Of a stretch of DNA of 32,000 nucleotides, positions 9,428-32,000 are shown in pieces. Source of the DNA: Rhodospirillaceae bacterium (GTDB lineage Bacteria; Pseudomonadota; Alphaproteobacteria; UBA6615); contig PBPM01000086.1 in NCBI GenBank assembly GCA_002724635.1, forward strand, positions 13,772 to 45,771, given 5' to 3'. The notes under the pieces were generated by a model. That model did not search any database, was not told the origin of the DNA, and was given only the letters and a program-made list of their open reading frames with translations. Position 1 is the stretch's first letter, and every line of letters begins with the position of its first letter. A program made the position numbers and the translations under genes.

Positions 9428-9523
9428 CCTTGCGTCGCGGCACCTAAAACCGCGCCGATCCTTACCGCTCCTTAACCATCCTCGCGTATCATGGCGGCAT
9501 CTGGATCGGTTTTGCAGCCATGA

Positions 9524-9712
9524 GAGTGCAAGGGTGCATTGTCTATAGCCCTGTCGATCAGCGCCGGCTGTTTTATCGGCTTCCATCTCGTCAAACGGCT
9601 CGTCGCGGAGGACGAGCATGTCTGCGCCTTCGTTGAATATGTTTCTTGCGGCTTGTTAGGCCAGCTCGACGGCTACCGCCCGGCCAACTATGAGTTTGCA
9701 AGCATCTTCTAG
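9524..9712 (+). pseudogene. N-terminal remnant of an SDR-type NAD-dependent sugar epimerase/dehydratase
   Basis: The frame after the TGA at 9521 reads ALSIALSISAGCFIGFHLVKRLVAEDEHVCAFVEYVSCGLLGQLDGYRPANYEFASIF*. This resembles xLVTGAGGFIGSHLVxxL...V.AFV.YNS...G.L, but the Gly-rich motif is mutated (ISAGCFIG), there is no Met start, and it stops after about 60 codons. Confidence 0.5.
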
Positions 9713-9736
9713 CCCGGATGCGGCCCCACTCTCCGC

Positions 9737-11014
9737 TTAGAGCTGCCAGCGACGATAAGCCTCGGGCAGCACGATCTTACGCCACATCCCTTTGATATCG
9801 GCCAGAAGGCCGCCCGAAGTCATTAGGCCCAACAACGCCTCCGCCGTCATCCCGGCGAACTCATGATGCCGGACAGCGCCGATCACGGCATCATAACCCG
9901 CCGCATCATCGAGTGACCTAAGCAAATCTATATCGAAAAATTGCTCAGCCTCCGAAGGGTCGGCGTGCGGGTCGTACACGTCCACATCATGTCCCATCGC
10001 CCGCAGGCTGGTGAAAATATCAACTACACGCGAGTTCCGCAGGTCGGGCACGTTTTCCTTGAATGTCAGCCCCAGCACTAAGACTCTCGCGGGCCCAGAC
10101 CCGAGAAGACCGGACACCTCGTCGGCGATATACCCGCCCATGCCGTCGTTGATGCGCCGCCCGGCGAGCACAACCTCGGGGTTGTGTCCGATCGATTGTG
10201 CGGCATGGGCCAGATAGAAGGGGTCGACCCCGATGCAGTGCCCACCGACTAGGCCCGGGTGGAACGGGAGGAAGTTCCACTTGGTGTTAGCCGCCTCCAA
10301 CACATCGAGGACATTCAGCCCGAGCCCGTTTAGGATCACGGCGACCTCGTTTACGAAGGCGATATTGATGTCGCGCTGTGCGTTCTCGATCACCTTTGCG
10401 GCCTCGGCCGTGCGGATGTTACGGGCGACGAAAACGTCGCCGCCGTTGACCGCCCCATACATGTCGGTGAGCTGCGTGGTGACCTCGGGTGTCTGTCCTG
10501 CAACGACCTTCGTTATACGGTCGACCGTGTGTTCGCGGTCACCCGGGTTGATTCGCTCGGGCGAGTAACCTAGGAAGAAGTCCTCACCGCAGGTCAGTCC
10601 CGATTCCGCCTCGAGGATCGGCGCGCAGATATCCTCGGTAACCCCGGGATATACCGTGGATTCATATACGATGATCGCCCCGACCGCGAGGTTCCGACCA
10701 ACCGTCTCGCTTGCGCTGCGCACAGGGCGCAGATCCGGCTGATTGTCGGCGTCAACAGGGGTCGGCACCGTCACCACGAAGATATTCGTCCCGACGAGTG
10801 CCGCCTCATCACTGGAAAAACGCATCTTGGTGTCATTAAGGGTGCCGGCATCGACTTCGTCGGTGCGATCCTCGCCGGCATTCAGTTCAGCGATCCGCGC
10901 TGCGTCGATATCGAACCCCGTCACGTCGAAATGCCGTGCCAGATGAATCGCTAGAGGGAGGCCAACATAGCCGAGGCCGACAACGGCAATTCGTAGTTTC
11001 TCAGACATCTTCAT
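9737..11014 (-). CDS. nucleotide-sugar 6-dehydrogenase, TviB/WbpO (UDP-HexNAc dehydrogenase)-like
   Basis: 425 aa. The N-terminus is RIAVVGLGYVGLPLAIHLARHFDVTGFDIDAARIAELNAGEDRTDEV, and the catalytic Cys lies in the block VGGHCIGVDPFYL. Confidence 0.9.
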   Translation of the reverse strand: MKMSEKLRIAVVGLGYVGLPLAIHLARHFDVTGFDIDAARIAELNAGEDRTDEVDAGTLNDTKMRFSSDEAALVGTNIFVVTVPTPVDADNQPDLRPVRSASETVGRNLAVGAIIVYESTVYPGVTEDICAPILEAESGLTCGEDFFLGYSPERINPGDREHTVDRITKVVAGQTPEVTTQLTDMYGAVNGGDVFVARNIRTAEAAKVIENAQRDINIAFVNEVAVILNGLGLNVLDVLEAANTKWNFLPFHPGLVGGHCIGVDPFYLAHAAQSIGHNPEVVLAGRRINDGMGGYIADEVSGLLGSGPARVLVLGLTFKENVPDLRNSRVVDIFTSLRAMGHDVDVYDPHADPSEAEQFFDIDLLRSLDDAAGYDAVIGAVRHHEFAGMTAEALLGLMTSGGLLADIKGMWRKIVLPEAYRRWQL

Positions 11015-11294
11015 GTACTCCGGTCACCGCCGCAGATATGCAGTATTCGTGAGCCGCTCATAACGCGGACGGGAGCATGATGCAAAACCCGATACAACAT
11101 GCGAACGACCTGGTTTTGCGACAATTCTGCTTGCATCGTCTTATGATTTGACGCAACAGGTGCCAAACTCCCAGGGGTAGTATTGTGGGGGCCGGAACAT
11201 TCGGGCCGCCCCTTGCACCGCCAAGCCATCTGACTTACGTGAATTAACTTCTCTTAGATGTAGCATAAAAAATTAAACACGCTCTTTTTGTATA

Positions 11295-12089
11295 ATGGAC
11301 CGTCTCGACACTCTTGAATCTCGTAGTGTGTACATTCTCCGGGAGGCCTATGCCTGCGCCCGACCTTTGGCAATGCTCTGGTCGATCGGCAAAGATTCAA
11401 ATGTTGTGCTCTGGCTCGCCCGCAAGGCCTTCTTTGGCAAAGTGCCTTTCCCCGTCATACAGCTGGACACAGGCATGGAGCTTGATGAGGTCTATGCCTA
11501 TCGTGATCAATATACGAAGGAGTGGAACCTCGATCTGGTGGTTATCGACTGTCCTCCAGAGAGCGAAATGGACCCCAGCCTTCCCCCGATGACCCGGTCG
11601 GCCGCGCGGAAGAGTGCCGGGCTCGCAAATCTGCTGCGTGACGAAGACTACAAGGGAATTCTTGTAGGCATACGCCGCGACGAAGAAGCCACCCGCGCCA
11701 AGGAGCGTGTCTTCAGTCCGCGCGCCTCCGACGGGGCATGGGAGTTCCGCGACCAGCCGGCCGAATTCTGGGATCAGTTCACGACGGACACGCCCGAGAA
11801 TGCACACCTGCGCATTCACCCGCTACTGCACTGGACCGAGATCGACATCTGGCGCTACACCAAGCGCGAGAATATTCCAGTTAATTCACTCTATTTCTCT
11901 AAAGACGGTAAGCGGTACCGCTCACTCGGCGAGAAGAACATCACAGCCCCAATCGACAGCGACGCCGCCACCATCGACGAGATCATCGAGGAGCTCGAGA
12001 CCACCAATATGCCGGAACGTGCGGGGCGGCTCATGGACAACGAGGCTGAGGATTCTTTCGAACGCCTGCGTACATCTGGGTACATGTAA
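11295..12089 (+). CDS. cysD: sulfate adenylyltransferase subunit 2 (CysD/NodP-like)
   Basis: LESRSVYILREAY, LWSIGKDSNVVLWLARKAF (PP-loop), GIRRDEEATRAKERVFS and C-terminal ERAGRLMD...GYM are collinear with CysD. I see no obvious SD sequence before the ATG. Confidence 0.88.
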   Translation: MDRLDTLESRSVYILREAYACARPLAMLWSIGKDSNVVLWLARKAFFGKVPFPVIQLDTGMELDEVYAYRDQYTKEWNLDLVVIDCPPESEMDPSLPPMTRSAARKSAGLANLLRDEDYKGILVGIRRDEEATRAKERVFSPRASDGAWEFRDQPAEFWDQFTTDTPENAHLRIHPLLHWTEIDIWRYTKRENIPVNSLYFSKDGKRYRSLGEKNITAPIDSDAATIDEIIEELETTNMPERAGRLMDNEAEDSFERLRTSGYM

Positions 12090-12114
12090 TGTCTAACCCA
12101 TCAACGTTCGGCCG

Positions 12115-14013
12115 ATGACAGACGGCGCGACACGGACGCGGCCGGCATCGGAGCGTCGGATGCGCGTGGTGATCGTCGGCCATGTCGATCATGGCAAGTC
12201 GACCCTTGTCGGCCGTTTGTTCCACGATACGGGCCAACTCCCCGACGGCAGGCTAGAAGCAATCGAGGGAATGTGCCGCCGGCGCGGCATGCCGTTCGAA
12301 TGGGCCTTCCTGATGGACAGCCTGAAGGCCGAACGCGACCAAGGCATCACGATCGACACGTCTCAGATCTGGTTTCGCCACGATGCGCGTGAGTATGTCC
12401 TGATCGATGCGCCAGGCCATCGGGAGTTCATCCGAAACATGGTGACCGGCGCCTCAAACGCCGATGCCGCGCTGTTGCTGATCGATGCGGACCAGGGCGT
12501 ACGCCGCCAGTCGCGCCACCACATGTATCTACTAAAACTTCTGGGCGTACGCGAGGTCACCGTCGCCGTCAACAAGATGGACCTCGTCGACTATGATGAG
12601 GGTCGCTTCCAGGAAATTGAGGCCGAATATCGACGGTATCTCGAGGGCATCGGGATCACGCCGCGCGAGATCATTCCGGTCTCTGCACGCGAGGGCGACA
12701 ACGTAGCCTCGCGATCCAAAAATATGGGCTGGTATTCCGGTCCGTGCATTTTGGAGTCACTGCCTAGGTTTGAGCACCCAGCCTCCGCGGAGGCACAAGC
12801 CCTGCGCCTGCCACTACAGGACGTCTACAAGTTCGATGAACGCCGCATCCTCGCCGGACGTATCGAGTCCGGCACCTTGAGGGTTGGTGACGACCTAGTA
12901 TTTTCTCCCAGCAACCGGACAGCAAAAATTAAGACTATCGAGAGCTGGAATGCCGGAGGCCCCGTCACATCGGCGTCGGCCGGACAGTCCGTAGGAATCA
13001 CGCTGGATGAGCAGATCTTCGTGGAGCGCGGAGAAATCGTCAGTCATGAGGTAAACGCGCCGGTCGAGTCCGATGTGTTCCATGTACGTCTGTTCTGGCT
13101 AGCCGATACGCCGCTCGAGATCGGTGCCGCCTGCGAGCTGAAAATTGGCCCGAGCCGAGTAGATGCGGTAGTCGAACAGATCGAGCGCGTCATCGACATC
13201 GACGCCCTGTCAGATCATGCCGCCACACGCGTGGCCCGTGACGAGATCGCCGATGTTTTAATCCGCACCAGCCGGCTAATGGCCTTTGACGCGCATGAAG
13301 ATCTCTCGCAAACGGGCCGGGTTGTCTTCGTCGATCGCCACCTGACTCTTGGCGGCGGCGTCCTGTCGCTCGGCAACTATCCCGACCAGCGTCAGCTCGT
13401 GACGGTGCGCGGCACCAACCTGACCGAGGTCGATCACAGGGTGGACCCTGAGCGCAGGGTTGCGCGCAACCGTCACAAGCCTGGGGTCCTCTGGTTCACT
13501 GGCCTATCCGGCGCGGGCAAGTCGACCCTCGCCATGGCGCTTGAACAGCGCCTGTTTTTCAAGGGCTATCAGGTCTATGTCCTTGACGGCGACAATGTGC
13601 GTTCGGGCCTGAATGCGAATCTCGGATTTTCACCCGAGGACCGCGCCGAGAACATTCGGCGCGTTGGCGAAGTTGCGGCTCTGCTCGCGGATGCCGGACT
13701 GATCGTTATCACCGCCTTCATCTCGCCCTATCGCGCGGACCGAGCGCGCGCGCGAGCCGCAGCCGGCGAGGCTTTTCACGAGGTCTTTATCGACGCCGAC
13801 GTCGCGACCTGCGAATCCCGCGATCCAAAGGGCCTTTACAAGCGGGCCCGCGCTGGCGAAATCAAGGAATTCACCGGCATCTCCGCACCTTACGAGGAGC
13901 CAAAAGCACCGGATATCATTATTGACACGAGCGGCCGTAGTGTCGACGAGTGCATAGACGATCTATTCACCTATGTGGCCGATCATTTCAGCACATCGGG
14001 CCAGCTCGGCTAA
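12115..14013 (+). CDS. cysNC: bifunctional sulfate adenylyltransferase subunit 1 / adenylylsulfate kinase (CysN-CysC fusion, NodQ-like)
   Basis: It has the GTPase motifs [14 protein letters not shown] and NKMD. The C-terminal APS-kinase domain has the P-loop [13 protein letters not shown] and FISPY. Confidence 0.93.
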
Positions 14014-14030
14014 GCGCATGAAAATGTTGA

Positions 14031-14069: not shown

Positions 14070-14075
14070 GGTTTG

Positions 14076-14723
14076 ATGACTGACAGTGAGCGCATACCGG
14101 TCGGCAAAGCCGATGATGCCGAGATCACACTAGGCATTCTGAACGCTATTCATGAGAATGAGCGGATAACCCAGCGAACAGTCGCTCAGGATTTGGGAAT
14201 CGCGCTCGGACTAGCGAATTCTTATCTGAAACGTTGCGTCAAAAAGGGCCTAGTTAAGGTCAGCCAAGCGCCGGCAAACCGATATGCCTACTACCTGACA
14301 CCACAAGGGTTTTCAGAAAAGAGCCGCCTGACCGCGGAGTATCTTTCTGATTCTTTCCGCTTCTTTCGTGATGCCCGCAGCCAATGCACCGAGGCTCTGC
14401 AAGAGGCCCAACGCCGCGGTTGGGGACGGATCGCCCTATTCGGTGCCAGCGAGCTCGCTGAGGTCGCCTCGCTTTGTGAAGCGCCGGATGTCGAAATCAT
14501 CGCTGTTGTCGACCCTGATAGCGCTCAGGCTTCGTTCGCGCATCTGCGCGTAGTGCGCAACCTCGCTGAGGCGGGAGACATCGATGCGCTTATCCTAACC
14601 GCGCTGGCAGGGCCTCAGGAAGCCTATGAAATGCTGGCTCGTGACCATCCGGACACGCATGTCATCGTGCCCAAACTCCTTCGCGTGAGCGAGATTCCAA
14701 CGCCGGAGAACGCACATGCATGA
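14076..14723 (+). CDS. winged-helix (EPS-associated MarR-like) transcriptional regulator with a C-terminal Rossmann-like extension
   Basis: ITQRTVAQDLGIALGLANSYLKRCVKKGLVKVSQAPANRYAYYLTPQGFSEKSRLTAEYL fits the EPS-locus MarR-like wHTH pattern. The C-terminal roughly 100 aa (RIALFGASELAEV...IIAVVDPD) looks like a nucleotide/CoA-binding fold. Confidence 0.72.
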   Translation: MTDSERIPVGKADDAEITLGILNAIHENERITQRTVAQDLGIALGLANSYLKRCVKKGLVKVSQAPANRYAYYLTPQGFSEKSRLTAEYLSDSFRFFRDARSQCTEALQEAQRRGWGRIALFGASELAEVASLCEAPDVEIIAVVDPDSAQASFAHLRVVRNLAEAGDIDALILTALAGPQEAYEMLARDHPDTHVIVPKLLRVSEIPTPENAHA

Positions 14724-15228
14724 CGCCAAGCGATGGTTCGTTGTCCGCACGCACCCTAACGGCGAGTTCAAGGCTCTTGCCCATATTCTTCGCCAGGGTT
14801 TCGATGGTTATCTGCCCCGTTACGTCAAGCGCCGTCGCCATGCACGTAAGACCGAGAATGTGCAGAAGCCGCTTTTCCCGGGATACCTGTTCGTCGGCAT
14901 GGATCCCGAGCGAGCAAGATGGCGTGCGCTCAACTCAACTGTCGGCGTCAGCGAGCTCATCTGCTACAGCGGGCAGCCAGCAGCTGTTCCCGACGAAGTG
15001 ATCGATGATATTCGTCGCCACGAAGACGAAAGCGGCTACGTGATTTTGGGCGAGCATGCCGGGCTCAAGAAGGGCGACCGGGTTCGGATCACCGAGGGCT
15101 CATTGTCCGATCAGATTGGGATCTTCGATGCACCCACGGACCAACAGCGCGTGTTCCTGCTGCTGGAACTTCTGGGTCGCCAAGTGCGCGTAAAAATGCC
15201 GATGACGGCGTTGGCGCCCGTCGGATAA
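14716..15228 (+). CDS. NusG-family specialised paralog (RfaH/UpxY-like antiterminator)
   Basis: The NGN domain reads RWFVVRTHPNGEFKALAHILRQGFDGYLP...PLFPGYLFV. The KOW-like segment reads KKGDRVRITEGSLSDQIGIF. It overlaps the regulator gene by 8 nt. Confidence 0.8.
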   Translation: MHDAKRWFVVRTHPNGEFKALAHILRQGFDGYLPRYVKRRRHARKTENVQKPLFPGYLFVGMDPERARWRALNSTVGVSELICYSGQPAAVPDEVIDDIRRHEDESGYVILGEHAGLKKGDRVRITEGSLSDQIGIFDAPTDQQRVFLLLELLGRQVRVKMPMTALAPVG

Positions 15229-15762
15229 CCCATCGCTCGGGCCGGGTTCGGCCGACCGGCCTCGGTCAGGGGCACCTTGCAGACCGCAACGCCCTTTCGT
15301 GTCAGTAGCCATTCCGCCAGTTCCAGCTCGAACGGCTCGTCGATATTCGCCACCAGCCAAATCAACCACCGCCGCAGCGGAGTTGTCGCCCAAAATAGGC
15401 GCACCATCCAGAAACGGGTTATGCCAAAACGCATAGCAAACCCTGTTGCGTCGGAAAAATGGCGGCACATCCTGTCGGCGGGCGGCGCGCGAACCATACT
15501 CAAGCAGCAATCTGATCCAATAGTCCTCGGCCGTCAGTGTTTTCTGCGCCGCGTAATGCTCTCGCGTCGGACTGACTGTTGCGGCGGCGTGCAGGCCCTC
15601 ATCGGTGAACGGGGCCTCCATATTGGCAACGAGATCCCGGGACCAACAAAGGGGAATGGTCAACGCTAACAGGAGCGATACATCGAAATACCGCCTCGCC
15701 TCCGTAGCGCACCGCTTCGGGGGTGTCACGGGATCGTCCGTCCACACGACGACCCGGTCAAT
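15229..15762 (-). pseudogene. possible frameshifted or degraded ORF of unknown family
   Basis: Two minus-strand frames both look coding and would need a frameshift near 15360-15500 to join. Frame A has a GTG at 15747 and GC3-rich codons to about 15370. Frame B runs from about 15500 to 15229. Neither frame has a stop before it runs antisense into the NusG-like gene. I could not assign a family. Confidence 0.25.
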
Positions 15763-16117
15763 CTAGCATTTTGGAAGAGCAATAAGGGTTGCTCGGCCGA
15801 GGAGGATCGGCCTGCCGACCGGGCTGCCGGAAATCTCTAATAACTATGCGTCGTTATTCACTTTCATGCGCAACGTTCCCCGCAGGATAGGATTGGATCG
15901 ATTGAACGCCGGCTTGGTTGAAAAAAGCTTTATGATCGCCGATACAAGTTCGGTCAAAAGCAACGGCAATCCGCGCCGAACCGAAAAAGCAACAGGTTGC
16001 AACAGAACGTGAATGGGTCTTTGGCCCGACTTGCTGTAGGTAGCACTCGGACGCTCGATCTAACCTTTCCGAATGTCCAACCCAGCGCAGCCCAACCGAT
16101 CTTGTGTATCCCGACCC

Positions 16118-17964: not shown

Positions 17965-17970
17965 CGCCAC

Positions 17971-19881: not shown

Positions 19882-19995
19882 CCTAAGCTCACCACACGAC
19901 TTGAAAAGCAACCCATTTGTTAGCTGGGGTGGCACTGATATGATCATCCTCCACTCATATAGGCGCGTTAGGATGCAACGGACACCCCCACTTCA

Positions 19996-25792: not shown

Positions 25793-26530
25793 ATGCGAGC
25801 TTCCGACACCGCGAAATCACAGAATGCCCGCAGGGCCTGGGAGCGAAAAGCGTCGCTACGCGCGGTCTACAAGGATGTTTACAGACGTCTCGCCGAAAAA
25901 CAGAGGCCCGGCCCAACGATCGAGATTGGCGGCGGGTCGGGAAACTTCAAGAACTTTGCACCGGAAACAATTTCTACAGACATCATCGTGGCGCCATGGC
26001 TGGACGCGGTTACGGACGCGGTACAGCTCCCCTTCGCAGATGCATCAGTCGCAAACATCGTCCTGTTCGATGTTTTACACCACATCGAGTTCCCGGTCCG
26101 CTTTCTCGACGAAGCGGCCCGGGTGCTCGCACCCGGAGGCCGGGTCCTGCTTTCCGAGCCGGCCATTACGCCACTCAGCAACCTGTTTTATACCCACCTG
26201 CATCCCGAGCCAGTTGACGCCGAGGCAGATGTATTCGTGGCCGGAACACCGAACCCAAACCGCGACCCGTTCGATGCGAATCAGGCGATTCCCACACTGA
26301 TGTTCTTAAAACAGCGCGAGCGGTTCCGGGATCGCTTCCCGATATTCGATATAGTCGATGTTCGCTACCATAGCCTGCTCGCATATCCACTTACCGGCGG
26401 CTTCAGGAAATGGACGGTAATCCCGGCCACCATCGTGCCTGCGATGTTGTCGCTCGAATCGGTATTTATGCCACTACTCGGAAGGCTCATGGCCTTTCGT
26501 CTGATCGTCACGATCGAGCGGCGAAACTGA
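25793..26530 (+). CDS. class I SAM-dependent methyltransferase (Methyltransf_11-like)
   Basis: IEIGGGSGNF, LPFADASVANIVLFDVLHHI and LAPGGRVLLSEP are present. Confidence 0.85.
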   Translation: MRASDTAKSQNARRAWERKASLRAVYKDVYRRLAEKQRPGPTIEIGGGSGNFKNFAPETISTDIIVAPWLDAVTDAVQLPFADASVANIVLFDVLHHIEFPVRFLDEAARVLAPGGRVLLSEPAITPLSNLFYTHLHPEPVDAEADVFVAGTPNPNRDPFDANQAIPTLMFLKQRERFRDRFPIFDIVDVRYHSLLAYPLTGGFRKWTVIPATIVPAMLSLESVFMPLLGRLMAFRLIVTIERRN

Positions 26531-26676
26531 GACGCAAAGCTGTTATCAGCTAATCCCGTCCCAGCGGAAAAAAACGATGACAGCCGTGATCGCTTTGCGT
26601 ATTCGGAACAGCATTGGGCGCAAAGGTGTTCCCACCGGCAACGACACGGCTCCAAAAGGATGCATTGAAGGAAAAC

Positions 26677-27693
26677 ATGCCAGACAAGACCAACGACTCG
26701 ATTGACTGGAGCGGAAAGACCGTTCTGGTTACCGGTGGCACAGGTTCCTTTGGGCGCCGGTTCGCCGAAAAGCTGCTGTGCCGTTACAAGCTTAGAAAGC
26801 TCATCATCCTATCACGCGATGAACACAAGCAATACGATATGCAACAGTCCGAAGTTTTCAAGAACCGCGACGAACTTCGTTACTTCATCGGTGATGTGCG
26901 CGATCAGAGCCGCTTGCGCATGGCAATGCGCGGAGTGGATTGCGTCGTACATGCCGCCGCGCTCAAGCATGTGCCAGCGGCCGAGTACAATCCGTTCGAA
27001 TGCATACGTACCAACGTCAATGGTGCGGAGAATATTGTCTCTGCGGCGATTGAAACCGGAGTACCCAAGGTGGTCGCTCTTTCGACCGATAAGGCAGTGA
27101 ATCCGATAAACATCTACGGCGCAAGTAAGCTTGCGTCGGACAAGATCTTTGTAGCCGGGAATATGCTGGCCGCTGATGCGCCAACCCGGTTTGCAGTGGT
27201 GCGATACGGCAACGTGCTCGGCTCACGTGGTAGCATCATCCCCCTTCTGCGCCAGTTCGTCGCCGAGGGTCGCAAGAGCCTGCCCCTGACCGACGAACGC
27301 ATGACGCGTTTCTGGATTACTCTCGACCAAGGCGTCGATTTTGTTCTGTCGAGCGCTGGGCTCATGCGCGGTGGTGAAATCTTCGTTCCAAAGGTCCCCA
27401 GTATGAAGATCGTCGACATGATGGAAGCGATCGCCCCCGGTATTCCGAACGAGGTGATAGGCATCCGGCCAGGAGAGAAACTGCACGAGGTCCTCATCAG
27501 CGAGGACGATACAGCGATCGTACTGGACCTCGGCGATCGTTATGTCATTTGCCCAAACCACGACACGCGCATTCAGGCCTTTCACGAAAAGAACGGTGCA
27601 ACAGCCGTGGGGCAGGGCTTCCGATACGCGAGTGATGCAAACGACGACTGGCTCAACGCAGACAGACTCAAGGCACTAATCGGCGAGGAATAG
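26677..27693 (+). CDS. pseB: UDP-N-acetylglucosamine 4,6-dehydratase, PseB/FlaA1 type
   Basis: VLVTGGTGSFG, RYFIGDVRD, VHAAALKHVPAAEYNPFECIRTNVNGAENI, ALSTDKAVNPINIYGASKLASDK, VRYGNVLGSRGSIIP, MTRFWITLDQGV, GGEIFVPKVPSMKIVD and IGIRPGEKLHEV are collinear with Helicobacter FlaA1 as I recall it. The SD gaagga precedes the ATG at 26677. Confidence 0.9.
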   Translation: MPDKTNDSIDWSGKTVLVTGGTGSFGRRFAEKLLCRYKLRKLIILSRDEHKQYDMQQSEVFKNRDELRYFIGDVRDQSRLRMAMRGVDCVVHAAALKHVPAAEYNPFECIRTNVNGAENIVSAAIETGVPKVVALSTDKAVNPINIYGASKLASDKIFVAGNMLAADAPTRFAVVRYGNVLGSRGSIIPLLRQFVAEGRKSLPLTDERMTRFWITLDQGVDFVLSSAGLMRGGEIFVPKVPSMKIVDMMEAIAPGIPNEVIGIRPGEKLHEVLISEDDTAIVLDLGDRYVICPNHDTRIQAFHEKNGATAVGQGFRYASDANDDWLNADRLKALIGEE

Positions 27694-27872: not shown

Positions 27873-29192
27873 ATGGCAGACAAAAGCAAGGCCCCGACCG
27901 TTTACATCGGGATGACCGCTGACATCATGCATCACGGTCTGATCAATGTTATCGAGGTCGGCCGCCAGCACGGCAGGGTGGTGATCGGGCTTATGACCGA
28001 TGGGGCCGTGTCCCGCTACAAGCCTCTCCCGTATCTTGAGTACGAACATCGTCGGCGAATCTTGGAAAACATCGTCGGTGTCGATGAGGTTGTTCCGCAA
28101 GAGGAATGGGATTTCGTCCCCAACCTGCGAAAGTTCAAACCAGAGATTGTGATCCATGGCGATGACTGGTGCGAGGGCCACCAGAAGATCTACCGAGATC
28201 GCGTCGTAGACGCCTTACGCGAATGGGGTGGCAAGTTGATCGAAGTCCCCTATACGCAAGGAGTCTCGACGCCGCGCTTCAATACCCAGCTGAGAGGCCT
28301 CGGCACGACATCCGAAATTCGCCGACAAAGCCTGCGGCGACACCTTGACTCTGGTGAGCTGATCCGGGTCATCGAGGTTCACAGTCCCCTCTGCGGCTTG
28401 CTTGCAGAGAATCTCGCCGTCAATCGGGAAGACAGCGTCGCGCGCTTCGAAGCAATGTGGGTTTCGAGCCTGACAGACTCGACAGTGCGCGGGAAACCCG
28501 ACATCGAACTAGTCGATACCAGCAGCCGAATTGCCGCCATCGACGCACTCTTTGAAGTGACCACCAAGCCCCTTATCTTCGATGGCGACACCGGCGGCTT
28601 GCCCGAGCACTTCGCTTTCACGATACGTACTCTGGAACGCCTAGGGGCATCCGCAATCATCATCGAGGACAAGACCGGCCCGAAACGAAACTCGCTCTTG
28701 GACGGCGATGGACACCACGTTCAGGAAGACATCGATATGTTCGCAGAGAAGATCGCGGTGGGCCGGAAGGCTGCTCTCACAGACGAGTTCATGATCATCG
28801 GCCGAATCGAGAGCCTTATACTTGGTGTCGGCATGGAAGACGCGCTGGTGCGCGCGCGCGCCTATGTGGCTGCCGGCGCAAACGGAATCATGATTCACAG
28901 CCGCCGTAAAACACCTGACGAGATCTTCGAGTTCTGCGACAAGTTCCGCGAGGCCGATCCGGACACGACGATCGTCGTTGTGCCTACCCAGTACAGCGTC
29001 GTCCGAGAATCCGAGCTGATCGAGCACGGGGTGAACATCGTGATCTATGCCAACCACCTCCTCCGAGCTTCATTCCCGGCGATGCGTGCAGTGGGCGAGT
29101 CCATTTTGCGCAACGGCCGCGCCATGGAGGCCGATGACATATGCCTGCCCGTGGACGAACTGCTCGGCATGATCCCTAATACCGTCTCATGA
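27873..29192 (+). CDS. pepM: fusion of a TagD-like cytidylyltransferase-fold domain and phosphoenolpyruvate mutase
   Basis: The N-terminal roughly 130 aa align to glycerol-3-phosphate cytidylyltransferase (EYEHRRRILENIVGVDEVVPQEEW, IHGDDW). The C-terminal domain carries the PepM-specific EDKTGPKRNS (EDKxxxxxNS) motif at 28665-28694. A strong SD (aaggggg) is present. Confidence 0.92.
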   Translation: MADKSKAPTVYIGMTADIMHHGLINVIEVGRQHGRVVIGLMTDGAVSRYKPLPYLEYEHRRRILENIVGVDEVVPQEEWDFVPNLRKFKPEIVIHGDDWCEGHQKIYRDRVVDALREWGGKLIEVPYTQGVSTPRFNTQLRGLGTTSEIRRQSLRRHLDSGELIRVIEVHSPLCGLLAENLAVNREDSVARFEAMWVSSLTDSTVRGKPDIELVDTSSRIAAIDALFEVTTKPLIFDGDTGGLPEHFAFTIRTLERLGASAIIIEDKTGPKRNSLLDGDGHHVQEDIDMFAEKIAVGRKAALTDEFMIIGRIESLILGVGMEDALVRARAYVAAGANGIMIHSRRKTPDEIFEFCDKFREADPDTTIVVVPTQYSVVRESELIEHGVNIVIYANHLLRASFPAMRAVGESILRNGRAMEADDICLPVDELLGMIPNTVS

Positions 29193-30349
29193 TCGAGCCT
29201 AACGCACTTCTCGATCAACTTTGCGCGGGCGGCATCGGATTTTTCACCGGTGTCCCCGACTCACTTCTGTCACCGCTCACATCGGCAATAGTCGCGCGGT
29301 TCCAAGACGGCGAGCATGTGGTCGCCGCGAACGAGGGAAGCGCTATCGCACTGGCAGCTGGACACCACCTCGCGACCGGTCAGACCGCATGCGTCTACCT
29401 GCAGAACTCCGGTCTCGGGAACGCCATCAACCCCCTGACCTCCCTGATGGATGAGGAGGTTTACGGAATCCCTGTTCTTCTGGTTGTCGGCTGGCGTGCC
29501 GAACTGAACGGCAATGAACAGCTCGCGGATGAGCCGCAACACCGCAAGCAGGGCAAGATCACGACGGGACTGCTCGATGTTCTCGGGATTCCCTACCTGA
29601 TCCTCGGACCTGACGGAATCGAGAACGGGTTGTCGGACGGCGTCGCCACCCTCATTTCTTTGGCGCAATCGGAGAACCGACCTGTCGCGCTCGTCGTGCG
29701 AAAGGGTGCCCTTGCCACCCTCACGACACCGTCAGGCGACTCCGTCGGCGTCATGACGCGAGAGGACGCGATCCGCGTTATTACAGAGACCGTCGGGCCG
29801 GAGATACCAATCGTTTCGACGACCGGGAAGGCATCGCGGGAGTTGTGGGAAATTCGCCGGCAAACCGATTTAGGAGAAGGTCGCCACGATGGGCAGGATT
29901 TTCTGACAGTCGGCTCGATGGGGCACGCCTCACAGATCGCTGCGGGCGTCGCGCTTGCAGATCGCGCGCGCGCCGTCCTATGTCTCGATGGAGACGGGGC
30001 CATGCTCATGCATCTCGGGGGCTTAGTCACCTCGGCGGCAATCCCTAACTACCGACATGTAGTTCTCAACAATGAGGTCCATGATTCGGTGGGCGGCCAG
30101 CCGACCAGCGGGGTTGGTCTCTCTCTAGCGCCGATAGCCGAGACATGCGGCTATGACTGGGTTCGTAGCGTTACCAGCCCGCGTGACCTGCCGGCTGCAC
30201 TCAAAGACATGCTGGCAGCGAATGGATCGGCGTTTCTCGAGATCATGGTACTGCCCGGCGCGCGAGCCGATCTCGGTCGGCCAAAGACCGCGCCGAAGGA
30301 CAGCAAGGCGGCGTTCATGACTCGCCTGAAGGACGGCTCTTCCGCCTAG
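29189..30349 (+). CDS. ppd: phosphonopyruvate decarboxylase (ThDP-dependent)
   Basis: GFFTGVPDSLLSPL at the N-terminus and the ThDP motif LDGDGAMLMHLGG...VVLNNEVHDSVGGQPT. An ATGA overlap joins it to pepM. Confidence 0.9.
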   Translation: MIEPNALLDQLCAGGIGFFTGVPDSLLSPLTSAIVARFQDGEHVVAANEGSAIALAAGHHLATGQTACVYLQNSGLGNAINPLTSLMDEEVYGIPVLLVVGWRAELNGNEQLADEPQHRKQGKITTGLLDVLGIPYLILGPDGIENGLSDGVATLISLAQSENRPVALVVRKGALATLTTPSGDSVGVMTREDAIRVITETVGPEIPIVSTTGKASRELWEIRRQTDLGEGRHDGQDFLTVGSMGHASQIAAGVALADRARAVLCLDGDGAMLMHLGGLVTSAAIPNYRHVVLNNEVHDSVGGQPTSGVGLSLAPIAETCGYDWVRSVTSPRDLPAALKDMLAANGSAFLEIMVLPGARADLGRPKTAPKDSKAAFMTRLKDGSSA

Positions 30350-31479
30350 CCGGCAGTTAGTCGTTCGAAAGCGCGCCGCGCGATCTGCCGTGCGATAAGG
30401 CCATCCGCATGACGAAGATTGTTGGCCGCGCGTGCTGGCGTAATCAGCGAATCTCCAAATGTATCGATGTCGTCAGCGGAGAGATGTCGAGCCATGACGT
30501 CACCGACACCGAGCGCGACCAGCCACCGTTCGAGTGTGTCGGGAACTGCATCGACGGCACACTCCAGCGCTTCGGCAACCGGCGCCAATCGTGCGGCGTC
30601 CTCCTCCTGATTAAAACGTGCAATTTCTGCCAAGGTGAAGCTGCATGCAAAACCGTGCGCGACACCGAAACGCGCGGTAAACGGATAGCTGATGGAATGT
30701 GCCAGCGCCGTCTGTGTCGTTCCCATGGCGAGTCCCGCCAGCAAGGCGGCCGTCTGCAGTGCGCCGCGTGCCTCGATATCCTTGGGCCGCGCTTCCGCGA
30801 CCGGCAGATACTTGTGGACCTGCGCGATCGCCTGAGCGGCAAGATAGTCGGTGAATATCGTATGCCGCCGGTTCCAGACAGCCTCGAGCGCATGAGACAC
30901 CGCATCGAGTGCTGTCGATCGGGTCAACTCGCTTGGCATGGTTATCGTCAGCGTAGGGTCCAAGATGGCATGACTCGGATAGAGACGCGGATCATTGATC
31001 GAATACTTTGTTCCGTCGTCACCCCATAGCGTCCCCCAGGGAGTCACCTCGGACCCTGTGCCCGCCGTGGTCGGCACCGCGATGATCGGAATTGGGAGTA
31101 TTTTCGCCGGCAGTGCGGCACCTTCGGAAAGATGATCGAGCAGGGGCGACATGTCGCCCCTGAGCGCCTTGAGTGCCACCATGCCCTTCGTCGCATCCAG
31201 CACGCTGCCCCCGCCCAGAGCGACGACCACCGACACATCGGGTATCTCCTCACTGAGTAAGGGCATCCGCGAGATCAACGGGTTCGGGTCAATATTGGAG
31301 ATAACCGCTGCGGGCGAACCAGCAATTGCCGCAATGCGAGCGTCGAAGTTTCTGTCTGCCCAGGAGCGGCTTGTAACCAGCGCCCAGTCCCGCCCGGCGA
31401 TGGCCGGACCAATGACCTCATCAAGCGCAGCCCCGTCGTGAACAGCGACTGGGCACCGGAACGGTGGCCTCAGAACCAA
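30346..31479 (-). CDS. group III iron-containing alcohol dehydrogenase, phosphonoacetaldehyde reductase (PhpC/FomC/Pdh)-like
   Basis: VVALGGGSVLDATKG, VPTTAGTGSEVTPW and the His-rich metal site LAHSISYPFTARFGVAHG are present. The apparent TTG start at 31479 overlaps the upstream cupin gene's stop. The function is inferred from the family and the pepM/ppd neighbourhood. Confidence 0.72.
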   Translation of the reverse strand: MVLRPPFRCPVAVHDGAALDEVIGPAIAGRDWALVTSRSWADRNFDARIAAIAGSPAAVISNIDPNPLISRMPLLSEEIPDVSVVVALGGGSVLDATKGMVALKALRGDMSPLLDHLSEGAALPAKILPIPIIAVPTTAGTGSEVTPWGTLWGDDGTKYSINDPRLYPSHAILDPTLTITMPSELTRSTALDAVSHALEAVWNRRHTIFTDYLAAQAIAQVHKYLPVAEARPKDIEARGALQTAALLAGLAMGTTQTALAHSISYPFTARFGVAHGFACSFTLAEIARFNQEEDAARLAPVAEALECAVDAVPDTLERWLVALGVGDVMARHLSADDIDTFGDSLITPARAANNLRHADGLIARQIARRAFERLTAG

Positions 31480-32000
31480 CGCTTGGTTTCCGCCAGCGCG
31501 CGGCTCCGACCGTCCGTTGCGAAGGTCGCGAATTCATCGAAGACTTCATCGACCAACTCGCCAGCAATCCGCGACATAGCAAGGCAGGCGCCCGCGGGGC
31601 CCTGCAGCCAATGCTCAACCATCGGGCGGATATAGGCGGAATCGCCCGGACCTATCGACGCGCTTCGACCATCACCCCAGAACAACTCGATATCCTGATC
31701 GCCATAGTTATAGAGATACTCATGGAGCTGATGCTGAAATCCCGGCCCGTCCGTATTTGCAGCACCGCCGAGCATCACAACGTTGAAGCCTCGCTGGCCG
31801 GGCTGATGTGGGGTCCGTGCGAGCTCCGACAATTCGCAAAAGGGTGCATTCGTGTCCGGAAACGGTCGTCGCTCGCTGCCGGCGAGATGGGTGATCGCAA
31901 CCTCGTTATCCTCGGCCATCGGAACAAACCAGAGGTCGCCGGGCTTGACCGCCAACGCAGCGCCCAGCACCGACAGCTCCTCGGCATTCGGCAGCAGGCC
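31470..32000 (-). CDS. C-terminal part of a cupin-fold protein, candidate 2-hydroxyethylphosphonate-utilising oxygenase (HEPD/MPnS/HppE superfamily); 5' end outside the window
   Basis: The frame is open to position 32000 (GLLPNAEELSVLGAALAVKPGDLWFVPM...). It has the cupin-like blocks HQLHEYLYNYGDQDIELFW and GPGDSAYIRPMVEH. It is translationally coupled to the Fe-ADH. The family assignment rests mostly on gene context. Confidence 0.5.
   Translation of the reverse strand, partial: GLLPNAEELSVLGAALAVKPGDLWFVPMAEDNEVAITHLAGSERRPFPDTNAPFCELSELARTPHQPGQRGFNVVMLGGAANTDGPGFQHQLHEYLYNYGDQDIELFWGDGRSASIGPGDSAYIRPMVEHWLQGPAGACLAMSRIAGELVDEVFDEFATFATDGRSRALAETKRWF

What the first reader, a model, noticed from the sequence alone, without database searches (positions are those of the whole stretch)
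9428..32000. Composite accessory locus predicting a glycan with methyl, sulfate, amide/amidino and phosphonate decorations but lacking assembly and export genes
Right of the heparinase-like gene almost every ORF is a sugar-tailoring or regulatory function. These are a UDP-HexNAc 6-dehydrogenase, PAPS synthesis, four methyltransferases, an AsnB-like enzyme, PseB, one GT4 and a phosphonate module, along with an EPS-type regulator and a NusG paralog. I know of no characterised locus with this combination. What is missing from the window is equally striking. There is no initiating phosphoglycosyltransferase, no Wzx/Wzy or Wzm/Wzt, no Wza/Wzc, no recognisable sulfotransferase, and no LicD/EptA-type transferase to install a phosphonate. 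Either these lie beyond 32 kb or the locus modifies a glycan built elsewhere. Genes here appear to use more A/T-ending codons than the left 9.4 kb (by eye), and two gene remnants mark the left border. Both observations are consistent with horizontal acquisition.
Basis: partly seen in the sequence, partly recalled or inferred. Interest (0 to 1): 0.8.

Follow-up and report, generated by a model that had tools for sequence, protein, structure and literature searches.

The report
Marine methylphosphonate surface-glycan gene locus
This is a large cell-surface sugar-decoration locus of an uncultured marine alphaproteobacterium whose "phosphonate module" makes methylphosphonate, the compound thought to fuel methane production in oxygenated seawater. 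Genes just past the window suggest how it is attached to a sugar chain.

Summary
The gene content is real, with corrections.

The phosphonate module is a complete methylphosphonate (MPn) pathway: Fom1-type CyTase-PepM, Ppd, Fe-ADH and MPnS. MPnS carries the diagnostic H/Q/F/I/H residues. Its C-terminus is the last, cut ORF of the window.

Most of what looked missing lies just past 32 kb, on the same scaffold or in syntenic relatives:
- a LicC/PntC-like cytidylyltransferase;
- a TagF-fold transferase;
- a small membrane protein;
- a 5-TM alkaline-phosphatase-family protein (EptA/LtaS architecture);
- the rest of a pseudaminic-acid pathway (PseC, H, G, I).

The MPn module therefore sits inside a Pse operon. 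No initiating transferase, Wzx/Wzy, ABC exporter or sulfotransferase was found anywhere examined.

GC3 does drop at 9428, from 0.80 to 0.68. However, the 9.4-15.2 kb block sits at this site in dozens of relatives, and one MAG is colinear over the whole locus. Distant relatives have one or two glycan genes and then purH. So this is an old glycan hotspot between the heparinase-like gene and purH, reshuffled by deletions and recent recombination. It is not a fresh island.

It is a known kind (marine MPn-glycan cluster) in a new variant. Sulfation and the acceptor remain inferred.

The parts
9452..9710 (+). 5' remnant of an SDR epimerase/dehydratase gene plus a deletion junction. In relatives, SDR and DegT genes sit here between the heparinase-like gene and the dehydrogenase.
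   Evidence: blastn matches L013 11701-11913 (72%) and L013 15133-15184 (79%). About 3.2 kb is therefore missing from the window. There is a weak PDB hit to SDR N-termini, E 0.76. Relatives carry SDR and DegT here.
9737..11014 (-). Nucleotide-sugar 6-dehydrogenase, TviB/WbpO-like. It probably makes UDP-HexNAc uronic acid.
   Evidence: Three UDPG_MGDP_dh Pfam domains. TIGR03026 scores 388 bits, above its cut-off. TviB scores 405 bits, below its 592 cut-off.
11295..12089 (+). CysD, sulfate adenylyltransferase small subunit
   Evidence: PF01507. NF003587 scores 312 bits, above the 195 cut-off.
12115..14013 (+). CysN-CysC fusion (ATP sulfurylase GTPase subunit plus APS kinase). Makes PAPS.
   Evidence: GTP_EFTU and APS_kinase domains. 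TIGR02034 scores 370 bits and apsK 251 bits, both above their cut-offs.
14073..14723 (+). Winged-helix regulator, MarR_EPS-like
   Evidence: HTH_24 at 7.8e-12. TIGR04176 scores 63 bits, below its 88 cut-off.
14716..15228 (+). Specialised NusG paralog (RfaH/UpxY-like), a probable operon-specific antiterminator
   Evidence: PF02357 scores 72 bits. RfaH scores 121 bits (cut-off 144.5) and UpxY 85 bits (cut-off 100), both below threshold.
15261..15819 (-). Pseudogene of a CMP-nonulosonate synthetase (CTP_transf_3, NeuA/PseF type)
   Evidence: tblastn with the L006 CTP_transf_3 protein gives E 3e-33. The match shows an in-frame stop, a 32-codon gap, a frameshift and a missing N-terminus. The gene is intact in L013, L014, L017 and L006.
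16073..17071 (+). Flippase-like polytopic membrane protein (LPG_synthase_TM), about 7 TM segments
   Evidence: PF03706 scores 145 bits. TIGR00374 flippase-like domain scores 76 bits, above its cut-off. TM count.
17251..17964 (+). TonB-like energy transducer
   Evidence: TonB_C at 1.3e-23
17971..19947 (-). TonB-dependent receptor, BtuB/CirA-like. Its role in the locus is unknown.
   Evidence: Plug and beta-barrel domains. BtuB in the PDB at 1.6e-29. TonB-B12 scores 178 bits, far below its cut-off. Conserved in L002 and L003.
19996..20829 (+). FkbM-family methyltransferase 1
   Evidence: PF05050 at 1.8e-20. TIGR01444 scores 104 bits.
20826..21785 (+). FkbM-family methyltransferase 2
   Evidence: PF05050 at 2.3e-22, with a weak RfbT hit
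21797..23389 (+). AsnB-C-terminal-like PP-loop adenylating enzyme. It lacks the N-terminal catalytic Cys of a glutaminase domain. Candidate amide- or amidine-forming enzyme.
   Evidence: PF00733 at 2.6e-9 over residues 174-433. The SGGRDS motif is visible in the sequence. No PDB sequence hit.
23386..24630 (+). GT4 glycosyltransferase, the only classical GT in the window
   Evidence: Glycos_transf_1 and Glyco_trans_1_4
24630..25760 (+). FkbM-family methyltransferase 3, with a C-terminal extension of about 200 aa and unknown function
   Evidence: PF05050. TIGR01444 scores 57 bits. The C-terminal part has no Pfam hit.
25793..26530 (+). Class-I SAM methyltransferase
   Evidence: Methyltransf_23 and Methyltransf_11
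26614..27693 (+). PseB, UDP-GlcNAc inverting 4,6-dehydratase. The likely start is 26677.
   Evidence: TIGR03589 scores 482 bits, above the 407.75 cut-off. The gene is called as 338 aa on the scaffold.
27873..29192 (+). Bifunctional Fom1-type cytidylyltransferase plus PEP mutase
   Evidence: TIGR02320 scores 372 bits, above the 319.55 cut-off. EDKTGPKRNS motif present. The N-terminal domain matches PDB 5x3d at 1.1e-42.
29189..30349 (+). Phosphonopyruvate decarboxylase (Ppd)
   Evidence: TIGR03297 scores 426 bits, above the 312.5 cut-off
30346..31479 (-). Fe-dependent alcohol dehydrogenase, a probable phosphonoacetaldehyde reductase making 2-HEP. It contains a recombination breakpoint.
   Evidence: Fe-ADH domains. 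TIGR03405 Phn_Fe-ADH scores 277.5 bits, below its 423.7 cut-off.
31470..32000 (-). C-terminal 176 codons of methylphosphonate synthase (MPnS). The full gene runs 31470-32858 on the parent scaffold.
   Evidence: The full 462-aa protein from L001 matches PDB 6b9s (MPnS) at 5e-75 and 6b9r (HEPD) at 2e-61. Residues H154, Q158, F168, I189 and H195 correspond to the MPnS signature.

Best explanation
The region is the left two-thirds of a cell-surface glycan biosynthesis and tailoring locus of at least 45 kb. It belongs to an uncultured marine alphaproteobacterium sampled by Tara Oceans. The locus occupies a conserved chromosomal hotspot between a heparinase II/III-like gene and, by inference from distant relatives, purH.

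Its layout is as follows.
- A conserved left block supplies precursors and control: UDP-HexNAc uronic acid, PAPS, a wHTH regulator and an RfaH-like antiterminator.
- A variable right block encodes tailoring enzymes (three FkbM and one class-I methyltransferase, an AsnB-like amidating enzyme, one GT4) and a pseudaminic-acid-type nonulosonic acid pathway.
- A complete methylphosphonate module is inserted into that pathway, between pseB and pseC.

Proposed mechanism.
1. PEP is converted to phosphonopyruvate by PepM.
2. Ppd converts this to phosphonoacetaldehyde.
3. The Fe-ADH converts this to 2-hydroxyethylphosphonate (2-HEP).
4. MPnS converts 2-HEP to methylphosphonate.
5. The LicC/PntC-like cytidylyltransferase next to mpnS activates MPn with CTP to give CMP-MPn.
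6. The adjacent TagF-fold enzyme transfers the methylphosphonyl group to a sugar hydroxyl and releases CMP. This parallels TagF's use of CDP-glycerol and gives an MPn monoester on the glycan.

What is shown: gene identities, MPnS signature residues, the TagF fold, and the conserved adjacency of the cassette.

What is inferred: the substrates of the cytidylyltransferase and the TagF-like enzyme; the acceptor, which may be a Pse-containing glycan or glycoprotein; the role of the 5-TM alkaline-phosphatase-family protein; and sulfation.
For: MPn pathway.
- PepM and Ppd exceed their NCBIfam equivalog cut-offs. The Fe-ADH's best match is the phosphonate-associated model TIGR03405, at 277.5 bits, below its 423.7 cut-off.
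- PepM carries EDKxxxxxNS.
- MPnS is closest to the solved N. maritimus enzyme (5e-75).
- It carries H/Q/F/I/H at the positions published as diagnostic for MPnS rather than HEPD (PMC9381506 Table S2).
- 108 of its 120 best homologs share F plus I/V at those positions.

Installation cassette.
- The parent scaffold continues with an NTP_transf_3 gene and a protein 100% identical to residues 160-394 of the 394-aa protein of L008.
- That protein is 49% identical to a PF04464 protein in the same position in a distant MPnS locus.
- About half of the 120 listed homologs carry PF04464 (948 hits in all).
- Its AlphaFold model has pLDDT 91.7, and its best PDB match is TagF at E 8e-14. The next GT-B enzymes score about 5e-9.
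- The cytidylyltransferase's best PDB matches are LicC (2e-11) and PntC (2e-6).
- The same four-gene cassette lies beside a phosphoramidate-type supply module in Pseudomonas chlororaphis. That module has a Cj1418-like protein (917 bits) and a Cj1417-like hydrolase (125 bits). Phosphoramidate and MPn are near-isosteric head groups.

Pse pathway.
- PseB passes its cut-off in the window.
- PseC passes at 460 bits (cut-off 423.5), and GNAT, PseG-like and NeuB/PseI-like genes follow, in the relative L008.

One functional unit.
- The MPn module is flanked by pse genes in L008, L004 and a JGI contig.
- In L006 the MPn module sits directly beside the dehydrogenase, cysD, cysNC, wHTH and NusG block in a different order.
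- Distant MPnS loci also carry APS kinases, sulfotransferases, GT4 and FkbM genes.

Hotspot.
Against: - The window holds only the C-terminus of MPnS. The signature residues, the cytidylyltransferase and the TagF-like gene come from the parent scaffold, which is 99.94% identical over 11.6 kb, and from relatives.
- No enzyme activity was tested.
- The TagF-like protein itself misses the Pfam threshold (E 0.019) and has no sequence-level PDB hit.
- Two cytidylyltransferases are present. The Fom1-type domain could instead deliver CMP-HEP.
- No acceptor-building genes (initiating transferase, polymerase, flippase of the Wzx type, exporter) and no sulfotransferase were found in any sequence examined.
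- The only CMP-nonulosonate synthetase gene in the window is a pseudogene. An intact copy is inferred only from a more distant relative.
- The right border (purH) was never reached.
Confidence: 0.7

Rival explanations
1. This is a recently and horizontally acquired composite accessory island starting at 9428. It decorates an LPS or EPS glycan that is assembled by genes elsewhere in the genome.
For: - GC3 falls by 12 points at 9428.
- Two pseudogene remnants are present.
- There are no assembly or export genes in the window.
- The content right of about 15.2 kb differs among equally related genomes.
- A sharp recombination breakpoint lies near 31.0-31.4 kb.
- The literature reports horizontal transfer of marine pepM cassettes (PMC8931226).
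Against: - The 9.4-15.2 kb block is at the same site in relatives down to 66% heparinase identity, and a DH is there even at 46%.
- SP218 is colinear over the whole locus.
- Locus GC3 co-varies with host GC3, with a typical offset of only 1-11 points.
- There is no tRNA, integrase or transposase.
- Even distant relatives keep glycan genes at this site.
Confidence: 0.2
2. The product is a protein-linked glycan rather than a polysaccharide. Flagellin, pilin, an S-layer protein or a membrane glycoprotein would carry a modified pseudaminic acid bearing methyl, amide and MPn groups.
For: - Pse pathways are classic for flagellin glycosylation (established knowledge).
- The locus has only one GT4 and no polymerase or exporter.
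- Phosphonates in Prochlorococcus fractionate with membrane glycoproteins (PMC8931226).
Against: - No Maf/DUF115, PglL-type oligosaccharyltransferase or flagellar gene appears in the window or in the extension sequences read in relatives (up to about 20 kb past the MPn module).
- A uronic-acid dehydrogenase, PAPS synthesis and an RfaH-like antiterminator are more typical of polysaccharide loci.
Confidence: 0.25
3. These are separate pathways that happen to be neighbours. A Pse-containing glycan is one product. The other is a phosphonate that is soluble or lipid-bound (MPn or 2-HEP) and is not attached to that glycan.
For: - pepM/ppd and pdh/mpnS form their own convergent gene pairs.
- In L006 the MPn genes lie away from the pse genes.
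- The Fom1-type CyTase is known from a small-molecule pathway, fosfomycin (PMC6697681).
Against: - A LicC/PntC-like cytidylyltransferase, a TagF-fold transferase and an EptA/LtaS-type membrane protein are conserved next to mpnS. These are hallmarks of head-group installation on envelope polymers.
- The module is nested between pseB and pseC in three lineages.
- No genes for further small-molecule tailoring, such as Fom3 or HppE types, were seen.
Confidence: 0.1
4. The group installed is 2-hydroxyethylphosphonate (or both HEP and MPn). The Fom1-type domain makes CMP-HEP for the TagF-like enzyme, and MPnS diverts only part of the flux.
For: - The CyTase domain is closest to Fom1, which cytidylylates HEP.
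- Both MPn and HEP are the abundant phosphonates in marine high-molecular-weight organic matter (PMC8931226).
Against: - The TagF-like gene is linked to the stand-alone cytidylyltransferase and mpnS, not to pepM.
- In L010 the cassette is present with mpnS, while pepM is not within 10 kb.
Confidence: 0.2

Closest known systems
Methylphosphonate biosynthesis clusters of marine microbes (Nitrosopumilus maritimus, Pelagibacter, marine Rhodospirillales). Sources: Metcalf 2012 and Born 2017 from my own knowledge; Lockwood 2022, PMC9381506.
   Same: - The PepM, Ppd, Fe-ADH and MPnS pathway.
- MPnS with the H148/Q152/F162/I184/H190 signature.
- A neighbourhood with a nucleotidyltransferase, a sulfatase-family protein, glycosyl- and methyltransferases.
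- Predicted MPn esters on a surface glycan.
   Different: - The module is nested inside a pseudaminic-acid operon.
- It is paired with a TagF-fold transferase rather than the LicD-type choline phosphotransferase listed in published neighbourhoods.
- The locus also carries full PAPS synthesis, an RfaH-like antiterminator and a TonB/receptor pair.
- PepM has a Fom1-type CyTase fusion.
Phosphonyl-tailoring (Pnt) pathway: PntC/LicC cytidylyl activation of 2-AEP for cell-surface phosphonoglycans (Rice 2019, PMC6697681)
   Same: - A PF12804 cytidylyltransferase beside phosphonate genes.
- PDB matches to LicC and to T. denticola PntC.
- The logic of a CMP-phosphonate donor.
   Different: - The expected substrate is MPn (or HEP), not AEP, and there is no AEP transaminase.
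- The transferase candidate has the TagF fold, not LicD.
- The downstream Pnt steps were described as unknown in that paper.
Campylobacter jejuni O-methyl phosphoramidate (MeOPN) capsule modification: Cj1415-Cj1418 plus Cj1421/Cj1422 (PMC11800397)
   Same: - A small P(V) head group is activated on CMP by an NTP_transf_3 enzyme and then transferred to sugar hydroxyls.
- Homologs of this locus's cytidylyltransferase (34% identity) and TagF-like protein (46% identity) sit beside Cj1417- and Cj1418-like genes in Pseudomonas chlororaphis.
- Stand-alone APS-kinase-like genes next to mpnS in L009 and L010 recall the Cj1415 3'-kinase.
   Different: - The head group here is C-P (methylphosphonate), not N-P.
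- The window has no glutamine kinase or amidate hydrolase.
- The window has no stand-alone kinase, only a canonical CysN-CysC.
- Whether Cj1421/Cj1422 belong to the TagF family was not tested.
TagF/TarF CDP-glycerol glycerophosphotransferases of teichoic acid and group-2 capsule synthesis
   Same: - The predicted GT-B-like fold, with TagF as the best structural match (E 8e-14, TM 0.61).
- PF04464 hits in about half of the 120 listed homologs.
- A CMP-leaving-group chemistry that would fit CMP-MPn.
   Different: - Only 14-16% sequence identity.
- The protein itself is below the Pfam threshold.
- No CDP-glycerol synthesis gene (TagD) is nearby.
- A single capping transfer is expected rather than polymerisation.
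Pseudaminic acid pathway (PseB, C, H, G, I, F) of Campylobacter/Helicobacter flagellin glycans and of various O-antigens and capsules
   Same: PseB (window) and PseC (relative L008) pass the equivalog thresholds. GNAT, PseG-like and NeuB/PseI-like genes follow in order.
   Different: - The operon is interrupted by about 9 kb of MPn genes.
- Extra aminotransferase, AMP-ligase, ACP and KAS III genes in relatives suggest unusual N-acyl groups.
- The PseF-type gene in the window is a pseudogene.
- No Maf glycosyltransferase is present.

Membership tests
Methylphosphonate synthase (MPnS) | Full-length homology to the solved N. maritimus MPnS, stronger than to HEPD | tested here: met
   PDB 6b9s at 5.1e-75 (256 bits) against HEPD 6b9r at 2.4e-61. 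The protein was read from the parent scaffold. The window holds its last 176 codons.
Methylphosphonate synthase (MPnS) | Iron ligands H148, Q152 and H190, plus F162 and I/V184, which fix the Gln (HEPD has Y/I162 and G/E184) | tested here: met
   Query residues are H154, Q158, F168, I189 and H195. The criterion comes from PMC9381506 Table S2. These residues lie outside the window, on the same scaffold.
Methylphosphonate synthase (MPnS) | Co-located supply of 2-HEP (PepM, Ppd, phosphonoacetaldehyde reductase) | tested here: met
   TIGR02320 scores 372 bits and TIGR03297 scores 426 bits, both above their cut-offs. Phn_Fe-ADH scores 277 bits, below its 424 cut-off but the best match.
Methylphosphonate synthase (MPnS) | Conversion of 2-HEP to MPn and CO2 in vitro | not testable with these tools
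   Needs an enzyme assay.
PEP mutase | EDKxxxxxNS active-site motif | tested here: met
   EDKTGPKRNS at residues 265-274
TagF-family CDP-alcohol phosphotransferase (PF04464) | Significant match to the Pfam Glyphos_transf model | tested here: inconclusive
   The SP218 ortholog scores E 0.019, below threshold. A homolog 49% identical in L010, and about half of the 120 listed homologs (948 hits in all), carry PF04464.
TagF-family CDP-alcohol phosphotransferase (PF04464) | TagF-like GT-B fold | tested here: met
   The AF2 model has pLDDT 91.7. The Foldseek top hits are TagF 3l7k and 3l7m at E 8e-14 and 3e-13. The next hits are at about 5e-9.
TagF-family CDP-alcohol phosphotransferase (PF04464) | Transfer of a phospho(no) head group from a CMP-linked donor | not testable with these tools
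   Needs an assay with CMP-MPn or CMP-HEP.
Pseudaminic acid biosynthesis pathway | PseB and PseC equivalogs | tested here: met
   PseB scores 482 bits, above 407.75, in the window. PseC scores 460 bits, above 423.5, in relative L008.
Pseudaminic acid biosynthesis pathway | PseH, PseG and PseI equivalogs | tested here: inconclusive
   A GNAT is present. PseG scores 88 bits (cut-off 153.55). NeuB scores 281 bits and PseI 243 bits, both below their cut-offs.
Pseudaminic acid biosynthesis pathway | Functional CMP-Pse synthetase (PseF) | tested here: inconclusive
   The only copy in the window is a pseudogene. An intact CTP_transf_3 gene lies downstream in the operon of relatives L051 and L052. It is not seen on the window's own scaffold.
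Recently acquired genomic island | Atypical composition relative to flanking core genes | tested here: met
   GC3 is 0.58-0.72 in the locus and 0.76-0.84 in core genes. The offset is smaller in relatives and tracks host GC.
Recently acquired genomic island | Absent from the same site in close relatives | tested here: not met
   The left block is present at this site in more than 20 related loci. The whole locus is colinear in SP218.
Recently acquired genomic island | Mobility genes or a tRNA at the borders | tested here: not met
   No tRNA. No integrase or transposase domains.
Self-contained Wzx/Wzy-, ABC- or synthase-dependent polysaccharide locus | Initiating phosphoglycosyltransferase, flippase/polymerase or ABC transporter, and an export channel | tested here: not met
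   None in the window or in the extension sequences read in relatives (up to about 20 kb past the MPn module). Only a flippase-like PF03706 protein is present. A WbpL-type transferase occupies the site in distant relative L044.
Glycan sulfation system | PAPS synthesis plus a sulfotransferase | tested here: inconclusive
   CysD and CysN-CysC pass their cut-offs. No sulfotransferase was found by Pfam or by PAPS-loop motif in the window, L001, L004 or L008. The distant MPnS locus L009 has two.
RfaH-type specialised NusG paralog | NGN domain and an equivalog-level match, with an ops-like recruitment site | tested here: inconclusive
   PF02357 scores 72 bits. RfaH scores 121 bits (cut-off 144.5) and UpxY 85 bits (cut-off 100). 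No ops element was searched for.

The most novel reading that the evidence does not exclude
The conserved four-gene cassette is the long-sought machinery that esterifies methylphosphonate onto marine glycans through a CMP-MPn donor. The cassette consists of a LicC/PntC-like cytidylyltransferase, a TagF-fold transferase, a small AYxDPGxG membrane protein and a 5-TM alkaline-phosphatase-family protein. It is homologous to the machinery that installs the near-isosteric phosphoramidate group in other bacteria. In this lineage the acceptor is a pseudaminic-acid-containing glycan, giving a methylated, amidated, possibly sulfated, MPn-capped acidic polymer of the kind that accumulates in marine dissolved organic matter.
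Probability: 0.3. Interest if true: 0.75.

Novelty: new variant of a known kind. Interest (0 to 1): 0.55.

Why it matters
Methylphosphonate bound to marine polysaccharides is the proposed substrate for aerobic methane production in the ocean. Only the synthase step is understood. The literature consulted states that the steps that attach phosphonates to cell surfaces are unknown (PMC6697681).

This locus offers three things:
- a concrete, testable set of candidate attachment enzymes, conserved next to mpnS in unrelated lineages and shared with a phosphoramidate system in a culturable Pseudomonas;
- a candidate acceptor chemistry, a nonulosonic-acid glycan;
- evidence that the MPn segment is exchanged by recombination between diverged marine lineages.

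It also shows that the apparent lack of key genes was mostly an effect of the window edge.

Tried and rejected
- Rfam gathering scan of the window: no RNA family, so no B12 riboswitch explains the BtuB-like receptor.
- Promoter and terminator scan of 9.3-20.1 kb: not above shuffled expectation.
- Pfam on small ORFs in the three non-coding gaps: nothing. The remnants were found only by comparison with relatives.
- Profile search of the TagF-like alignment against PDB sequences: only a spurious phage hit. Fold search was needed.
- Born 2017 and Metcalf 2012 could not be read. The MPnS criteria were taken from Lockwood 2022 instead.
- I first suspected that the C. jejuni 'CGPTase' was the MeOPN transferase. 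The paper shows they are different genes, so no claim is made that Cj1421/Cj1422 are TagF-like.
- Two sulfotransferase motif scans were negative. One motif-like hit in L051 is outside the window's lineage.
- I tried to reach the right border (purH) through a methyltransferase beyond NeuB. This showed 10 kb more of glycan genes in a relative but no purH.
- The AsnB-like protein has no PDB sequence relative and was not pursued structurally.

Full report
**Source and gene map**

The window comes from a 56.9-kb Tara Oceans scaffold (ERZ2773050, TARA_SAMEA2619840 scaffold_500). Locus L001 from that scaffold is 99.94% identical to window 20346-32000. The scaffold ends only about 2.4 kb past the window.

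Left of 9428 lie ordinary core genes: gpsA, acs, htpX, rsmB, rpe and a heparinase II/III-like gene.

Three genes it did not list are also present:
- a flippase-like LPG_synthase_TM protein (16073-17071);
- TonB (17251-17964);
- a BtuB-like TonB-dependent receptor (17971-19947, minus strand).

No tRNA, Rfam family, integrase or transposase is present.

**The phosphonate module makes methylphosphonate**

- PepM scores 372 bits on TIGR02320 and carries the EDKTGPKRNS motif.
- Ppd scores 426 bits on TIGR03297.
- A phosphonate-type Fe-ADH follows.
- The cut ORF at the window's end is the C-terminus of a 462-aa protein. That protein matches the solved N. maritimus methylphosphonate synthase better than HEPD (5e-75 against 2e-61).

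The published criteria separating MPnS from HEPD are H148, Q152, F162, I/V184 and H190 (Lockwood 2022, Table S2). The corresponding residues here are H154, Q158, F168, I189 and H195. Of the 120 best homologs, 108 share the F plus I/V pair, and many are named methylphosphonate synthase by JGI. These residues lie just outside the window, on the same scaffold.

The PepM also has an N-terminal domain matching the Fom1 cytidylyltransferase domain (PDB 5x3d, 1e-42). Fom1 is known to cytidylylate 2-HEP (PMC6697681).

**What lies beyond 32 kb**

The same scaffold continues with an NTP_transf_3 gene and a truncated ORF. That ORF is 100% identical to residues 160-394 of a 394-aa protein in locus L008.

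L008, the SP218 MAG contig (L004) and a JGI contig all show the same order after mpnS:
1. cytidylyltransferase;
2. the 394-aa protein;
3. a 78-110-aa protein;
4. a sulfatase-family protein of about 505 aa;
5. on the other strand, PseC (460 bits, above its cut-off), a GNAT, a PseG-like gene and a NeuB/PseI-like gene.

PseB in the window is therefore the first gene of a pseudaminic-acid-type pathway. About 9 kb of MPn genes interrupt that pathway.

**The candidate installation enzymes**

- The 394-aa protein is 49% identical to a PF04464 (TagF-family) protein. That protein occupies the same position next to the cytidylyltransferase and mpnS in a distant locus whose MPnS is 51% identical.
- It has 948 homologs, about half of the 120 listed carrying PF04464.
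- Its AlphaFold model is confident (pLDDT 91.7). Its best PDB matches are TagF at E 8e-14. Generic GT-B enzymes follow at about 5e-9.
- The cytidylyltransferase's best solved relatives are LicC and the phosphonate-specific PntC.
- The sulfatase-family protein has four or five N-terminal TM helices followed by the catalytic domain. This is the EptA/LtaS architecture.
- The small protein has a conserved AY(I/V/L)DPGxG motif followed by a TM helix.

**A parallel that supports the mechanism**

The same four-gene cassette occurs in Pseudomonas chlororaphis. There it sits beside a PRK05849 protein (917 bits) and a gamma-glutamyl-CDP-amidate hydrolase-like protein (125 bits). These are homologs of Cj1418 and Cj1417 of the C. 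jejuni methyl-phosphoramidate pathway. The TagF-like proteins are 46% identical between the two contexts, and the cytidylyltransferases 34%.

That pathway makes a CDP-activated phosphoramidate, which is then transferred to capsule sugars (PMC11800397). A phosphoramidate head group and methylphosphonate differ only by NH2 versus CH3.

I therefore infer that CMP-MPn is the donor and the TagF-like enzyme the transferase. This is inference, not demonstration.

Stand-alone APS-kinase-like genes sit next to pdh/mpnS in two distant loci. They recall the Cj1415 3'-kinase, but the window has only a canonical CysN-CysC.

**Is it one unit?**

- The MPn module is nested between pse genes in three lineages.
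- In L006 the MPn module sits directly beside the dehydrogenase, cysD, cysNC, wHTH and NusG block, in a different order.
- Distant MPnS loci also carry APS kinases, sulfotransferases, GT4, FkbM and sulfatase-family genes.

This recurrent association in rearranged orders argues against a chance neighbourhood.

**Is it a horizontally acquired island?**

GC3 is 0.80 in core genes and 0.68 in the locus, with no overlap. Several observations argue against recent acquisition.

- A metagenome scan with the heparinase-like protein found 39 related loci. The block of dehydrogenase, cysD, cysNC, wHTH and NusG paralog follows the heparinase-like gene in relatives down to 66% identity. SDR and DegT genes usually lie in between.
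- SP218 is colinear with the window from gpsA to beyond mpnS.
- In distant relatives the site holds one or two glycan genes and then purH. L044 has a WbpL-type transferase, a WbpM-type dehydratase and then purH. L043 has a dehydrogenase and then purH.
- Locus GC3 tracks host GC3 across relatives, with a 1-11 point offset.

The locus is therefore an old, site-specific glycan hotspot. The variable part begins after the NusG paralog.

Reshuffling is nevertheless evident.
- The SDR stub and deletion junction at 9452-9710 mark a loss of about 3.2 kb.
- The NeuA/PseF-type pseudogene at 15261-15819 marks replacement of a neuA-neuB cluster that relatives still carry.
- DNA identity to L008 jumps from 81-88% to 98-99.8% at about 31.0-31.4 kb, inside pdh. 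The segment carrying mpnS, the cytidylyltransferase and the TagF-like gene was therefore exchanged recently.

**What remains unresolved**

- No initiating transferase, Wzx/Wzy, ABC exporter, Wza/Wzc, Maf or oligosaccharyltransferase was found in the window or in the extension sequences read in relatives, up to about 20 kb past the MPn module.
- No sulfotransferase was found either. Sulfation is only implied by the conserved PAPS genes.
- An intact CMP-nonulosonate synthetase is seen only in a more distant relative, whose operon continues more than 10 kb past NeuB. That stretch includes acyl-carrier and KAS III genes, WbqC, a second DegT and a second sulfatase-family gene.
- purH was not reached.
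- The acceptor, whether polysaccharide, LPS or glycoprotein, is unknown.

**Comparison with what is known, and verdict**

Marine MPnS clusters in glycan neighbourhoods are documented, including in Rhodospirillales (PMC9381506). Marine pepM cassettes are known to sit in variable regions and to be transferred horizontally (PMC8931226).

Four features looked new in the literature I could search:
- the nesting of the MPn module in a Pse operon;
- the TagF-fold transferase;
- the cassette's kinship with a phosphoramidate system;
- the recombination breakpoint.

I rate this a new variant of a known kind. Interest is moderate, mainly because it makes the unknown MPn attachment step directly testable.

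Noticed in passing
window 17251-19947: A TonB gene and a BtuB/CirA-like TonB-dependent receptor sit in the middle of the glycan locus. They are conserved there in L002 and L003. No riboswitch lies upstream, and there is no obvious link to glycan synthesis.
   Followed up: partly
window 30900-31400, compared with L008: DNA identity to relative L008 steps sharply from 81-88% (left) to 98-99.8% (right, to the scaffold end at about 34373). This is a recent recombination breakpoint inside pdh. The exchanged segment covers mpnS, the cytidylyltransferase and the TagF-like gene.
   Followed up: yes
L050 (Pseudomonas chlororaphis, CATKQZ010000001.1) 3364-14461: A culturable Pseudomonas carries the homologous cassette: a sulfatase-like gene, NTP_transf_3, a TagF-like gene and a small AYxDPGxG protein. 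It lies beside Cj1418-like and Cj1417-like genes, a YidC-like insertase paralog and a Formyl_trans_N protein. This is probably an undescribed phosphoramidate-type surface modification, and a tractable model for the cassette.
   Followed up: partly
L008 7133-7435; L004 7706-7942; L010 7550-7789; L050 11146-11388: A small protein of 78-100 aa has a signal-like start, a conserved AY(I/V/L)DPGxG motif and one TM helix. It always sits between the TagF-like and sulfatase-like genes. It matches no Pfam family.
   Followed up: partly
L010 12467-13069; L009 14156-14707: Stand-alone APS-kinase-family genes lie directly next to pdh/mpnS in distant MPnS loci. Their best match is the PRK05541 subfamily. 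They could be 3'-kinases for a CMP-linked donor, as Cj1415 is, rather than sulfate-pathway enzymes.
   Followed up: no
window 585-1298, 3243-3965, 4995-5732: Three unusually long stretches (714-738 nt) in the core left region have no convincing gene. ORFs there gave no Pfam hit or look like GC-rich frame artefacts.
   Followed up: no
window 15820-16072 and 11015-11294: Two non-coding leaders, one of them AT-richer (GC 0.50 at 11015-11294), lie next to the RfaH-like antiterminator gene and the divergent dehydrogenase/cysD promoters. Part of 11015-11294 is conserved in L046, L014 and L013. This is a possible place for an ops-like recruitment element.
   Followed up: no
L044 (MDTE01112327.1): One relative has 61% heparinase identity and the same rpe, heparinase, purH synteny, yet a core GC3 of only 0.32. 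The window's core GC3 is 0.80. This is a very large compositional divergence within one syntenic clade.
   Followed up: no
L051/L052 10730-14282: Downstream of the Pse genes in a relative lie a 79-aa ACP-like gene, KAS III, a hexapeptide acyltransferase, WbqC and an AMP-ligase. These suggest an unusual N-acyl substituent on the nonulosonic acid.
   Followed up: no
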